UHGV virus genome: UHGV-0360402 | DNA from: a virus | DNA length: 41,827 bases | Strand: one strand, 5' to 3' | Shown: positions 10,555 to 11,640 of the stretch, one piece after another | Position numbering within the stretch: the first letter of the stretch is position 1 | Layout of the letters: each line of letters begins with the position of its first letter | Made by a program: the position numbers and the translations under genes | Notes under the pieces: model-generated | What the model was told of the DNA's origin: nothing | The model's input: the letters and a program-made list of their open reading frames with translations, nothing else | Database searches by the model: none

Positions 10555-10986
10555 ATGAGCAGAGAAGATCCACAACTAAGGATCAGACTTCCCGTTGAAG
10601 TAAAAGAAAAAATAGAAATTTCTGCAAAAGCCAATAAGCGATCAATGAACGCTGAAATAGTACAACGTCTTGACACCAGCTTTCTGAAAGATATTCATGA
10701 AGATGACGTAATTTCTGCTTATGAAGCAAAAATTATTGCAAACAATGCACGGCATGAAATATCAAATATTATTTTCAAAAGAACCTTTAATGAAATTAAT
10801 AAGAAAATAACACTTGGACATACAAGTTTTTATATAAACCTTAATGACCTTGAACTGGAATCACTTGCAGATAATGATTACCAGATCATCTTTGAAAAAA
10901 CATTTAATAAGCTCAATGAACTAGGTTACATCATCTGTGAAAACTCATGGGATGCAGATGGTTTTGGAATTGAAATACCTGAATAG
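10555..10986 (+). CDS. Mnt-like RHH regulator with extra about 95-aa C-terminal domain (143 aa)
   Basis: ATG 10555; LRIRLPVEVKEKIEISAKANKRSMNAEIVQRL matches Mnt RHH; divergent from arc-ant; AT-rich; Arg codons mostly AGA/AGG. Confidence 0.7.
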   Translation: MSREDPQLRIRLPVEVKEKIEISAKANKRSMNAEIVQRLDTSFLKDIHEDDVISAYEAKIIANNARHEISNIIFKRTFNEINKKITLGHTSFYINLNDLELESLADNDYQIIFEKTFNKLNELGYIICENSWDADGFGIEIPE

Positions 10987-11028
10987 GAAGAACAAAAGGC
11001 GTGTACATATTACACGTCTTTAATACAA

Positions 11029-11640
11029 TTGAAAAACGCCACATTACTGATGTATGTTACAACAAGGAGCGATATTTTGAAAACCATATCTATATTAAAG
11101 GTTGCATTAGGCGTCGCTATTATTTTGACTCTCTCAATATTGTTTTATTTTTACCACAAAAAAAATGCTATTGCTCTTGATGGTCACGCGGCAAACTCAT
11201 TTTTCTCAGAGTACATAGTGCCGCTATCAGGAAGCGGTATAACAAATAAATATACTGACTATGACATCAAATATGGAATTGATGATGGGGAGACTATTGT
11301 ATTACATGTAATCATTAAAAACCTAATGACAGTAAATAAAAATACAGACTTCAACGATAAAAATACAATACATCACAACAACAGCAAAACATTAATTTCT
11401 TATAGTAGCAACATCTATACGGATAAATACCTAAAATACATCTCAGAAGATACAATAAAAGCAACCAGCGAAAAGTTAAAAAACATATATTGTGCATCCG
11501 GCAGTTTTCACAAATTATCGCCGCAGGAGCGTTTATTCTACGAAGCAAGAAAACAACGTAAGTCAATAATATTACATTATTATGCTGATTCAGGGGAGTC
11601 ACTCATATTTAATATTGGGGTTTCCCCTGAATCATGCTAA
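11029..11640 (+). CDS. AT-rich membrane-anchored moron protein; candidate superinfection-exclusion or defence factor
   Basis: Start uncertain: TTG 11077 has AAGGAG RBS, ATG 11050 has none, ORF-track start 11029; N-terminal hydrophobic anchor; about 30% GC; sits where sieA sits in P22. Confidence 0.55.
   Translation: MKNATLLMYVTTRSDILKTISILKVALGVAIILTLSILFYFYHKKNAIALDGHAANSFFSEYIVPLSGSGITNKYTDYDIKYGIDDGETIVLHVIIKNLMTVNKNTDFNDKNTIHHNNSKTLISYSSNIYTDKYLKYISEDTIKATSEKLKNIYCASGSFHKLSPQERLFYEARKQRKSIILHYYADSGESLIFNIGVSPESC

What the first reader, a model, noticed from the sequence alone, without database searches (positions are those of the whole stretch)
10555..11640. AT-rich pair: extended Mnt-like regulator plus membrane-anchored protein at the position of sieA in P22
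The Mnt-like protein has a normal RHH domain but about 95 extra C-terminal residues of unknown function. The next gene encodes a roughly 190-aa membrane-anchored protein. Both are about 30% GC and rich in AGA/AGG codons, so they look recently acquired. The location beside the immunity region is where P22 carries superinfection exclusion genes, so this pair is a candidate exclusion or defence module.
Basis: inference. Interest (0 to 1): 0.55.

Follow-up and report, generated by a model that had tools for sequence, protein, structure and literature searches.

The report
Mnt-like repressor plus periplasmic moron protein
The interval holds two unrelated prophage genes: the maintenance repressor of a P22-type antirepressor switch, which is ordinary apart from an uncharacterised extra domain, and a separately transcribed, rare, membrane-anchored periplasmic protein that sits where phage P22 keeps its superinfection-exclusion gene and is a reasonable but untested candidate for the same job.

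Summary
The described features are real. Gene 10555-10986 encodes a 143-aa Arc/Mnt ribbon-helix-helix protein. Gene 11077-11640 encodes a 187-aa protein with one N-terminal membrane segment. Both are about 32% GC in a 47.7% GC E. coli prophage close to phage TL-2011b. They are not a co-conserved pair.

The Mnt-like protein belongs to a large Enterobacterales family (60-69% identity over its full length). It always faces an arc-like gene plus antirepressor genes across a conserved operator region, and here a sar antisense RNA is present too. This is a complete P22-type immI switch. Its last 57 residues form an alpha/beta domain with no recognisable relative.

My best reading is an immI repressor plus an independent moron that probably excludes related phages in the periplasm. 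That function is inferred, not shown.

The parts
9256..10194 (-). Antirepressor (ant) gene of the immI-type module. RefSeq calls a 300-aa product ending at 10158.
   Evidence: Pfam P22_AR_N E 2.5e-45. Annotated as phage antirepressor in the identical E. coli record.
10160..10263 (+). sar antisense RNA (10196-10263), with a promoter-like site at 10160-10188 and its terminator-like hairpin at 10239-10258.
   Evidence: Rfam RF00262 sar, 45.2 bits against a gathering score of 43, E 3e-7, full model length. Promoter scan TTGATA-17-TATACT, 10 of 12, plus a terminator-like site.
10267..10434 (-). Arc-like small RHH protein, 55 aa.
   Evidence: 33% identical to P22 Arc, pairwise E 4e-5. Weak Arc-type PHROG matches. 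A 55-58-aa gene holds the same position in 10 of 11 homologous loci; none was called in L019.
10450..10517 (.). Control region. O1 is CCCCACGGTGGGG at 10450-10462. An invariant block TGTCACACCGTGCGTCATTG lies at 10472-10491. O2 is GCACACGGTGAGG at 10499-10511. The leftward Pant-like promoter is TTGACA 10498-10493 / GACAAT 10475-10470. The rightward Pmnt-like promoter is TTGATG 10489-10494 / CATACT 10512-10517.
   Evidence: Exact palindrome hit. Three CACGGTGrGGCA copies spaced 24-25 bp apart. The blocks are conserved across E. coli, Enterobacter, Yersinia and Proteus while the flanks vary. Promoter scan. The Pmnt hexamers and the resemblance of O1 to the P22 mnt operator core (recalled from memory) are my reading of the sequence.
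10555..10986 (+). Extended Mnt-type repressor, 143 aa. It has an RHH domain (2-46), a long helix (55-86) that aligns with the Mnt C-terminal helix, and an extra alpha/beta domain (87-143).
   Evidence: Pfam Arc. 32% identity to the whole of P22 Mnt, E 3e-14. PDB profile hits only through the RHH domain, 1mnt at 2e-7. phrog_1388 over the full length. More than 260 full-length homologues. AlphaFold model with pLDDT 78.6.
10995..11021 (.). Stem-loop between the two genes (11-bp arms, 5-nt loop, A-run before and T-run after). It is a probable two-way intrinsic terminator.
   Evidence: Inverted repeat I6. Fold -13.1 kcal/mol, z -6.29, and none of 200 shuffles folds as well. Terminator-like call on the minus strand.
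11002..11069 (+). Promoter-like sites for the 187-aa gene (TGTACA-16-TACAAT at 11002-11029; TTGAAA-18-TATGTT at 11029-11058) and a Shine-Dalgarno AAGGAG at 11064-11069.
   Evidence: Promoter scan, 9 of 12 each and not above the chance count. In a 97%-identical allele the first -10 reads TATAAT, while the second site is broken by a 4-nt insertion. The SD is read directly from the sequence.
11077..11640 (+). 187-aa signal-anchored periplasmic protein (phrog_8033). It has a TM segment at 4-22, an alpha/beta domain at about 32-187, invariant Cys139 and Cys187, and a variable insertion at 87-102.
11652..14666 (-). 1004-aa internal virion (ejection) protein gene. Its 3' end is the conserved convergent neighbour of the 187-aa gene family.
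   Evidence: phrog_342 'internal virion protein with endolysin domain', E 3e-209. It follows the T7 gp14-family and SLT-domain genes. The synteny holds in 13 loci.

Best explanation
The interval contains two independent transcription units, not one module.

(1) Gene 10555-10986 is the Mnt equivalent of a complete P22-type immI switch. I infer that its RHH dimers bind the CCCCACGGTGGGG-type operators at and beside the leftward Pant-like promoter. This would keep arc and ant silent in the lysogen, while sar RNA adds antisense control. Residues 55-86 correspond to the Mnt oligomerisation helix. The family-specific alpha/beta domain (87-143) most likely strengthens or extends oligomerisation, so that one complex can occupy the three operator repeats spaced 24-25 bp apart.

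(2) Gene 11077-11640 is a separate moron with its own promoter, downstream of a terminator hairpin. Its product is anchored in the inner membrane by one N-terminal segment. It exposes a disulfide-bonded alpha/beta domain with a PA3611/AspS-like fold in the periplasm. I infer that it is made by the prophage and blocks DNA entry of related podoviruses by binding a periplasmic part of their ejected internal virion proteins. That would make it functionally analogous to P22 SieA but unrelated to it in sequence and topology.

Shown: the homologies, the synteny, the conserved operators, the sar match, and the predicted topology and fold. Inferred: DNA binding at these particular sites, the role of the extra domain, expression in the lysogen, and the exclusion function.
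For: For the repressor:
- Pfam Arc E 1.1e-14; alignment to all 83 residues of P22 Mnt, E 3e-14; PDB 1mnt 2e-7.
- The arc-like protein is 33% identical to P22 Arc; ant carries P22_AR_N; sar RNA scores above the Rfam gathering threshold.
- The palindromic operator and the invariant promoter block are conserved in four genera.
- The same divergent arrangement (55-58-aa gene plus Bro-N, ORF6N or ANT genes) is seen in 11 loci from Enterobacter, Yersinia pestis and Proteus siphovirus prophages, with variable or absent downstream cargo.

For independence of the two genes:
- There is a hairpin of -13.1 kcal/mol between them.
- Homologues of the 187-aa protein occur without any Mnt-like gene.
- In E. 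coli MS8345 and MS 196-1, which share a 95.7-99.1% identical virion-protein gene end, the slot holds an unrelated 175-aa membrane-anchored protein and no mnt or arc.

For the 187-aa protein:
- All 14 family members have a K/R-rich N-terminus and one hydrophobic segment; in 11 of 14 acidic residues outnumber basic ones just after it (the two E. coli copies have none). All 14 share two invariant Cys.
- The model has pLDDT 79.7 and pTM 0.68.
- The order of secondary-structure elements and the Cys positions (end of alpha2, C-terminus) match the published AspS description.
- It is convergent with, and 11-35 bp from, the end of the internal virion protein gene in 13 loci that are down to about 30% identical.
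- P22 keeps sieA in the same place, and SieA acts on ejection proteins gp16 and gp20.
- The ORF is intact in more than 1,400 Escherichia contigs.
- Nonsynonymous changes are relatively frequent between alleles: 9 nonsynonymous to 9 synonymous, and 6 to 2, against 3 to 6 and 1 to 3 for the repressor (small numbers).
Against: - No experiment bears on either gene.
- The 187-aa protein matches no known exclusion or defence family. PADLOC gives only one weak ThsB hit (E 0.0049) that its homologues do not share. Comparison with SieA is negative.
- Its nearest folds are a pilotin and a secreted protein of unknown function. These point as much to host-envelope biology as to phage exclusion.
- The promoter-like sites are no more frequent than chance.
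- Conserved synteny with the virion gene could also mean a role in the phage's own cycle.
- The operators are assigned by conservation and by resemblance to the P22 operator, which I recalled from memory rather than tested.
Confidence: 0.5

Rival explanations
1. One reading: the regulator and the membrane protein are one two-gene exclusion or defence module, with the extended Mnt-like protein controlling or partnering the membrane effector.
For: The genes are adjacent, on the same strand and share low GC. They always occur together in the 36 E. coli genomes that carry this DNA.
Against: The co-occurrence is within one prophage lineage at 97-100% identity. Across genera each gene occurs without the other. 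A stable hairpin separates them. No operator-like site lies upstream of the 187-aa gene. The regulator's conserved partners are arc, ant and sar.
Confidence: 0.06
2. The 187-aa protein is a lysogenic-conversion factor that acts on a host envelope machine rather than on incoming phage DNA delivery. For example, it could be an inner-membrane-tethered pilotin mimic that binds a secretin or other periplasmic partner, changing secretion, surface structures or receptor availability.
For: The closest folds are PA3611 and the T2SS pilotin AspS. The AspS paper suggests a largely hydrophobic crevice that binds the secretin S-domain. The protein has periplasmic topology with conserved cysteines. It is carried by prophages of pathogenic E. 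coli.
Against: There is no sequence similarity to AspS or PA3611. It has no lipobox and no N-terminal Cys. The gene's fixed position next to the ejection-protein gene across E. coli, Providencia and Proteus phages argues for a phage-centred role. Receptor masking would in any case also count as exclusion.
Confidence: 0.22
3. The 187-aa protein serves the phage's own lytic cycle, for example by handling the ejection proteins or peptidoglycan-degrading activity during entry or exit. It would then not be a prophage-expressed gene.
For: Tight, conserved juxtaposition with the internal virion protein gene in 13 loci. In three Proteus-type loci it is the only gene called above my 110-aa reporting cut-off between that gene and a large minus-strand ORF that I take to be the tailspike.
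Against: It lies on the strand opposite to the whole structural and lysis operon. Closely related E. coli prophages with a 99.1%-identical (MS8345) or 95.7%-identical but IS-disrupted (MS 196-1) virion-protein gene end lack it and carry an unrelated gene instead, so it appears dispensable, although whether those prophages are viable was not tested. The cultured relatives EC.W1-9 and the Klebsiella phage phi13.3 lack it. The lysis cassette is elsewhere.
Confidence: 0.12
4. The extra C-terminal domain of the Mnt-like protein is a sensor or partner-binding domain, binding for example an antirepressor, another phage's protein or a small molecule. It would make the immI switch respond to a signal rather than simply adding oligomerisation.
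For: The domain is conserved over more than 260 cluster representatives, with invariant residues (G88, F92, L99, L101, T116, L120, L123, Y125, F137, I141) beyond what a simple spacer needs. P22 Mnt works without it.
Confidence: 0.25

Closest known systems
P22 Mnt repressor and the immI region (mnt, Omnt, Pant, arc, sar, ant)
   Same: The RHH domain and the following helix align to all of P22 Mnt (32% identity, E 3e-14). Arc-like, P22_AR_N antirepressor and sar RNA components are all present. The operator palindrome has a CACGGTG core like the P22 mnt operator as I recall it. The module sits between the ejection-protein genes and the tail fibre/tailspike-type gene, as in P22.
   Different: The protein is 143 aa rather than 83, with an added alpha/beta domain at 87-143 that has no known relative. 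The two promoters appear back-to-back with overlapping -35 boxes, rather than almost fully overlapping as annotated in P22. There are three operator-like repeats. The host phage is a TL-2011b-type podovirus with T7-like core proteins, and the same module also occurs inside tail-gene clusters of siphovirus prophages.
P22 SieA superinfection-exclusion protein
   Same: Same genomic slot and orientation: convergent with the last ejection-protein gene, next to mnt. A small membrane protein of similar size (164 vs 187 aa). In P22 it has its own annotated promoter and lies downstream of the terminator that follows the mnt-orf59a unit.
   Different: No sequence or profile similarity. SieA has three predicted TM helices and a conserved motif FxRYPxEAxxFNK predicted to face the cytoplasm (PMC10883804). 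The 187-aa protein has one N-terminal segment and a roughly 155-residue periplasmic domain with two conserved cysteines.
PA3611 (PDB 3NPD) and the AspS pilotin of type II secretion (PDB 4FTF)
   Different: No detectable sequence similarity. The protein is membrane-anchored by an uncleaved-looking hydrophobic segment, whereas AspS is a lipoprotein and PA3611 is a soluble secreted protein. It carries a 20-25-residue low-confidence insertion (87-102) that is partly deleted in one E. coli allele and absent from most other family members. It is phage-encoded and linked to ejection-protein genes, not to a secretin.
Other envelope-located exclusion proteins (T4 Sp and Imm; HK97 gp15), named from my own knowledge and from the review PMC11436027
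   Same: Small prophage- or phage-encoded proteins anchored in the inner membrane that block DNA entry after adsorption. They are often encoded as morons among virion genes (for T4 Imm/Sp and SieA).
   Different: No homology was tested or expected. The function of the 187-aa protein is untested.

Membership tests
Arc/Mnt ribbon-helix-helix repressors (Pfam PF03869) | Match to the Arc RHH profile above the curated threshold | tested here: met
   54.5 bits against a cut-off of 20.4, E 1.1e-14, residues 2-46. PDB profile hits to pArc, AmrZ, Mnt and Arc.
P22 Mnt-type maintenance repressor | Similarity beyond the RHH domain to the Mnt C-terminal oligomerisation helix | tested here: inconclusive
   The BLASTP alignment covers Mnt 1-83 and AlphaFold predicts one long helix at 55-86. 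Identity in that part is low and the oligomeric state cannot be computed here.
P22 Mnt-type maintenance repressor | Divergent from an arc-ant operon, with a palindromic operator at the ant promoter | tested here: met
   Arc-like gene, P22_AR_N ant, O1 palindrome just downstream of the Pant-like -10, conserved in four genera.
P22 immI region | sar antisense RNA between arc and ant | tested here: met
   RF00262, 45.2 bits against a gathering score of 43, full length, on the strand opposite to arc and ant.
P22 Mnt-type maintenance repressor | Represses ant and is required to maintain lysogeny | not testable with these tools
   Needs genetics or DNA-binding assays.
SieA family (types A-C) | Sequence similarity to SieA | tested here: not met
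   BLASTP E 0.34 over a TM stretch only. hhalign probability 0.3%.
SieA family (types A-C) | Three or four TM helices and the motif FxRYPxEAxxFNK, predicted to be cytoplasmic (PMC10883804) | tested here: not met
   One hydrophobic segment only. The motif is absent from the sequence.
SieA family (types A-C) | Blocks DNA injection of related phages | not testable with these tools
   Needs plating and DNA-entry assays.
AspS/PA3611 fold group | Alpha/beta fold with a five-stranded sheet and four helices | tested here: inconclusive
AspS/PA3611 fold group | Conserved disulfide linking alpha2 to the C-terminal element | tested here: inconclusive
   Cys139 and Cys187 are invariant in 14 sequences and lie at the matching positions in the element order.
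AspS pilotins | Lipoprotein signal (lipobox Cys) and binding of a secretin S-domain | tested here: not met
   There is no Cys in the N-terminal region of the E. coli protein. Secretin binding is not testable here.
Known anti-phage defence systems (PADLOC-DB v2) | Profile match shared by family members | tested here: not met
Two-gene module (regulator plus effector) | Co-occurrence of the two gene families across lineages | tested here: not met
   11 loci have the repressor family without the 187-aa family. 11 loci have the 187-aa family without the repressor family.

The most novel reading that the evidence does not exclude
The 187-aa family may be a new class of periplasmic superinfection-exclusion protein. 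Under this reading, an inner-membrane-tethered domain with a pilotin-like (AspS/PA3611) fold uses its peptide-binding groove to capture a segment of the ejected internal virion protein, whose gene it always abuts. This would stop assembly of the trans-envelope DNA conduit of TL-2011b-type podoviruses. The slot after the last ejection-protein gene would then be a general exclusion-gene hotspot in short-tailed temperate phages, filled by non-homologous proteins such as SieA in P22, this family, and the 175-aa anchored protein in E. coli MS8345.
Probability: 0.2. Interest if true: 0.65.

Novelty: new variant of a known kind. Interest (0 to 1): 0.4.

Why it matters
If the 187-aa protein does exclude phages, it would be a second, structurally unrelated solution to the problem P22 solves with SieA. 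It would give a soluble periplasmic domain that is easier to study structurally than a polytopic membrane protein, and so a handle on how podovirus ejection proteins assemble in the periplasm. It would also add one more prophage function relevant to choosing therapeutic phages against E. coli, Proteus and Providencia.

The repressor result is mainly tidy bookkeeping. A very common 'Arc family DNA-binding protein' of Enterobacterales prophages can now be read as the Mnt of a mobile immI cassette with conserved operators. Its extra domain is a defined, testable unknown.

Tried and rejected
- Homology of the 187-aa protein to SieA: none.
- Pfam, NCBIfam and PADLOC on the 187-aa protein and, for Pfam, on all 14 family members: no consistent family. 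The single hits (DUF3836, Imm42, ParE, ThsB) are each limited to one member.
- Foldseek against viral structures: nothing with E below 0.001. The AlphaFold-database library was unavailable.
- tblastn against phage genomes: only TL-2011b carries the 187-aa gene.
- I first assumed an epsilon15-like phage. The internal virion protein instead finds EC.W1-9, Klebsiella phi13.3 and Vibrio podoviruses, and NCBI leaves TL-2011b unclassified, so I dropped that label.
- A search for further Mnt-type operators in the window, for example upstream of the 187-aa gene, found none above chance.
- A broad-alignment locus search failed for lack of conserved blocks. A narrower alignment found only Proteus/Providencia-type loci.
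- A lysogen transcriptome paper mentioning mnt concerns a different, P22-like phage and was not informative.
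Full report
**Source and setting**

The window is an E. coli prophage. The region 10200-11720 is 99.2% identical to Escherichia phage TL-2011b. Bases 10471-11651 are 100% identical to the chromosome of E. coli AHB29, where the prophage lies beside yfgI. RefSeq annotation of that copy shows a short-tailed phage with a T7 gp14-family core protein, a 905-aa SLT-domain protein and a 1004-aa protein (window 11652-14666, minus strand). The 1004-aa protein matches PHROG 342, 'internal virion protein with endolysin domain'. The finding lies between this ejection-protein block and the tail fibre/tailspike-type gene, in a stretch that also holds antirepressor genes.

**Check of the observation**

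ORF 1 (10555-10986) encodes 143 aa. Pfam Arc matches residues 2-46 (E 1.1e-14).

ORF 2 is best read from TTG 11077, 7 nt after AAGGAG, to the stop at 11640. This gives 187 aa and is the same call RefSeq makes. It has one strongly hydrophobic segment at residues 4-22 and no other.

GC content is 32.2% and 32.6%, against 47.7% for the window. The AGA/AGG claim is weak: 4 of 7 and 1 of 3 Arg codons. ATA codons are enriched in ORF 2 (11 of 23 Ile).

P22 has the order 16, sieA, orf59a, mnt, arc, ant, 9, with sieA and mnt on the strand opposite to the late genes.

**The Mnt-like protein**

It aligns to the whole of P22 Mnt (32% identity, E 3e-14, residues 1-86). A family profile hits PDB entries only through the RHH domain: pArc, AmrZ, Mnt 1mnt at 2e-7, and Arc.

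The AlphaFold model (34 sequences, pLDDT 78.6) shows these elements:
- the two RHH helices;
- a long helix at 55-86, which corresponds to the Mnt C-terminal helix;
- a strand-helix-hairpin domain at 87-143.

The protein is far from unique. More than 260 cluster representatives across Enterobacter, Citrobacter, Salmonella, Klebsiella, Yersinia, Proteus, Providencia and others share 60-69% identity over their full length. All are named 'Arc family DNA-binding protein', and PHROG 1388 covers it end to end.

**It belongs to an immI switch**

- The neighbouring 55-aa gene (10267-10434, minus strand) is 33% identical to P22 Arc.
- The next gene carries the P22 antirepressor N-terminal domain.
- Rfam finds a full-length sar antisense RNA at 10196-10263, above its gathering score. 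A promoter-like and a terminator-like site lie in the right places.
- The intergenic region holds an exact palindrome, CCCCACGGTGGGG (10450-10462). It is one of three CACGGTGrGGCA repeats spaced 24-25 bp apart.
- An alignment with the equivalent regions from Enterobacter, Yersinia and Proteus shows that the two outer repeats and a 20-bp central block are conserved while the surroundings are not.
- A leftward TTGACA-17-GACAAT promoter lies so that O1 sits at its start site. I read a rightward TTGATG-17-CATACT promoter with O2 in its spacer.

In 11 loci from three other genera the homologue always faces a 55-58-aa gene (not called in one locus, L019) followed by Bro-N, ORF6N or ANT-type antirepressors. 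These modules are embedded in tail-gene clusters of siphovirus prophages. What follows the repressor differs between loci: nothing, a 210-aa gene on the other strand, or a 68-aa gene. The repressor is thus a part of a mobile immI cassette, and its downstream neighbour is variable cargo.

**The 187-aa protein**

A word-indexed search found only near-identical E. coli copies. A full HMMER scan of 1.8 billion representatives found 17 proteins, and a profile search added a few from Providencia and Proteus.

The family has these properties:
- Members are 153-194 aa and down to about 30% identical.
- They share a basic N-terminus and one hydrophobic segment, followed in most members by acidic residues.
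- Motifs L34, A39, F42, F43, Y46, P49, Y62, Y168 and Y169 are conserved.
- Cys139 and Cys187 are invariant.
- One member has a classical cleavable signal peptide.

This pattern indicates an N-in/C-out anchor or a secreted form, with the domain in the oxidising periplasm.

The AspS paper describes the order alpha1, beta1-3, alpha2, alpha3, beta4-5, alpha4. It also describes a conserved disulfide from alpha2 to alpha4 that PA3611 shares, and suggests that a largely hydrophobic crevice, like the open groove seen on PA3611, binds the secretin S-domain. The model has the same element order, with the two invariant cysteines at the corresponding places. I could not measure their distance.

There is no sequence-level link to these proteins, to any Pfam or NCBIfam family, to PADLOC beyond one unshared weak hit, or to SieA.

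**Context of the 187-aa gene**

In the window, in TL-2011b, in five loci found through exact protein look-up and in six more found by pattern scan, the gene is convergent with the 937-1133-aa internal virion protein gene. It ends 11-35 bp from that gene's stop.

Its upstream neighbours vary: a 175-aa gene, a 98-aa gene, or an ORF6N gene. In three loci no other gene was called above my 110-aa reporting cut-off before a large minus-strand ORF that I take to be the tailspike. None of these loci has the Mnt-like gene.

Of 44 complete E. coli genomes that carry this virion-protein gene end, 36 carry the repressor plus the 187-aa gene. Of the remainder, I examined MS8345 and MS 196-1 (99.1% and 95.7% identical over the gene end). 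Both have an unrelated 175-aa protein with an N-terminal membrane segment in the same slot, and no mnt or arc.

The slot therefore behaves like a cargo hotspot for small membrane proteins, which is also how the sieA locus of P22-like phages behaves. [quoted passage not shown]

**Are the two genes co-transcribed?**

An 11-bp-stem hairpin at 10995-11021 (-13.1 kcal/mol, z -6.3) with flanking A and T runs follows the repressor gene. Promoter-like hexamers and a strong Shine-Dalgarno follow it. In a 97%-identical allele the first -10 becomes TATAAT. This resembles P22, where a terminator follows the mnt-orf59a unit and sieA has its own promoter. It is suggestive, not proof.

**Variation**

The exact 187-aa sequence or close variants occur, intact, in more than 1,400 contigs of E. 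coli, E. albertii and E. marmotae. Between alleles the 187-aa gene shows 9 nonsynonymous to 9 synonymous changes, 6 to 2, and 3 to 2. The repressor shows 3 to 6 and 1 to 3. The numbers are small, but the membrane protein looks less constrained, as exclusion proteins often are.

**Composition**

The repressor family is 6-8 GC points below its surroundings in Enterobacter, Yersinia and Proteus. The E. coli copy, at 32% GC, matches Proteus/Providencia values. The relatives of the 187-aa gene whose host could be identified are from those genera. A low-GC origin is plausible. 'Recent' cannot be shown.

**Conclusion**

I hold four conclusions with different confidence:

| Conclusion | Confidence |
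|---|---|
| The first gene is the Mnt of an immI switch | about 0.85 |
| The two genes are independent units | about 0.8 |
| The second gene encodes a periplasm-facing anchored protein | about 0.8 |
| Its function is superinfection exclusion acting on DNA delivery | about 0.35 |

The main rivals for the function of the second gene are a pilotin-like effect on a host envelope machine and a role in the phage's own cycle.

Noticed in passing
window 10196-10263 (+): Full-length match to the Rfam sar antisense RNA of P22 immI (45.2 bits, E 3e-7), between the arc-like and ant genes. A promoter-like site lies at 10160-10188 and a terminator-like hairpin at 10239-10258.
   Followed up: partly
L001 (TL-2011b NC_019445) about 6380; equivalent to window about 10580: The reference genome of phage TL-2011b has a 1-bp insertion (CTAAGGGATC against CTAAGGATC) that frameshifts the Mnt-like gene after about 8 codons. 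The gene is therefore annotated there as a 113-aa hypothetical protein. This is either a sequencing error or a real mnt defect, which could relate to the phage's release from its host.
   Followed up: partly
window 8480-9144, ORF 8680-9120 (+): A second AT-rich (35.6% GC) cargo gene of 146 aa (phrog_5954, unknown function) replaces the YafO-family toxin-like genes that TL-2011b has at this place. RefSeq does not call this ORF in the identical E. coli record.
   Followed up: partly
L022 3948-4475 and L023 3948-4475 (E. coli MS8345, MS 196-1); window 6608-7336 (-): An unrelated 175-aa protein (WP_000451652) occupies the slot of the 187-aa gene in closely related prophages. Its N-terminal membrane segment (MEVFLIIVGIV...) resembles that of the window's 242-aa ORF (MEVFWIVVGVV...), with 39% identity over 31 residues, while the rest differs. 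This suggests a shared anchor joined to swapped C-terminal domains.
   Followed up: partly
window 11658-11702; L024 3501-3545: A 45-bp stretch covering the extreme 3' end of the 1004-aa gene is 100% identical in about 36 other E. coli genomes, many of them ST131. It includes a terminator-like hairpin at 11662-11677. In the one such genome I examined (an ST131 isolate) it is intergenic, in a different podovirus-type prophage between a 98-aa two-TM-like gene and a 283-aa gene. It may be a shared terminator or a recombination joint.
   Followed up: partly
L013 (P22 NC_002371) 5520-5771; PHROGs 795 and 2685: The RefSeq record of P22 labels mnt as 'partition protein ATPase', and two PHROG families that match the Mnt-like protein carry the same label. 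This looks like a propagated misannotation.
   Followed up: no
L018 and L019 358-2046 (-), Proteus prophages: An AIPR (abortive infection) domain protein of 562 aa sits just beyond the antirepressor genes of the same immI-type cassette. The cassette therefore does carry known defence cargo in some phages.
   Followed up: no
window 7736-8392 (+) and 9256-10194 (-): The prophage carries at least two antirepressor-type genes: one that RefSeq names 'phage antirepressor Ant' (218 aa) and a P22_AR_N type (300-312 aa). Related prophages add Bro-N and ORF6N types. Only the second gene lies under the Mnt-type operators.
   Followed up: no
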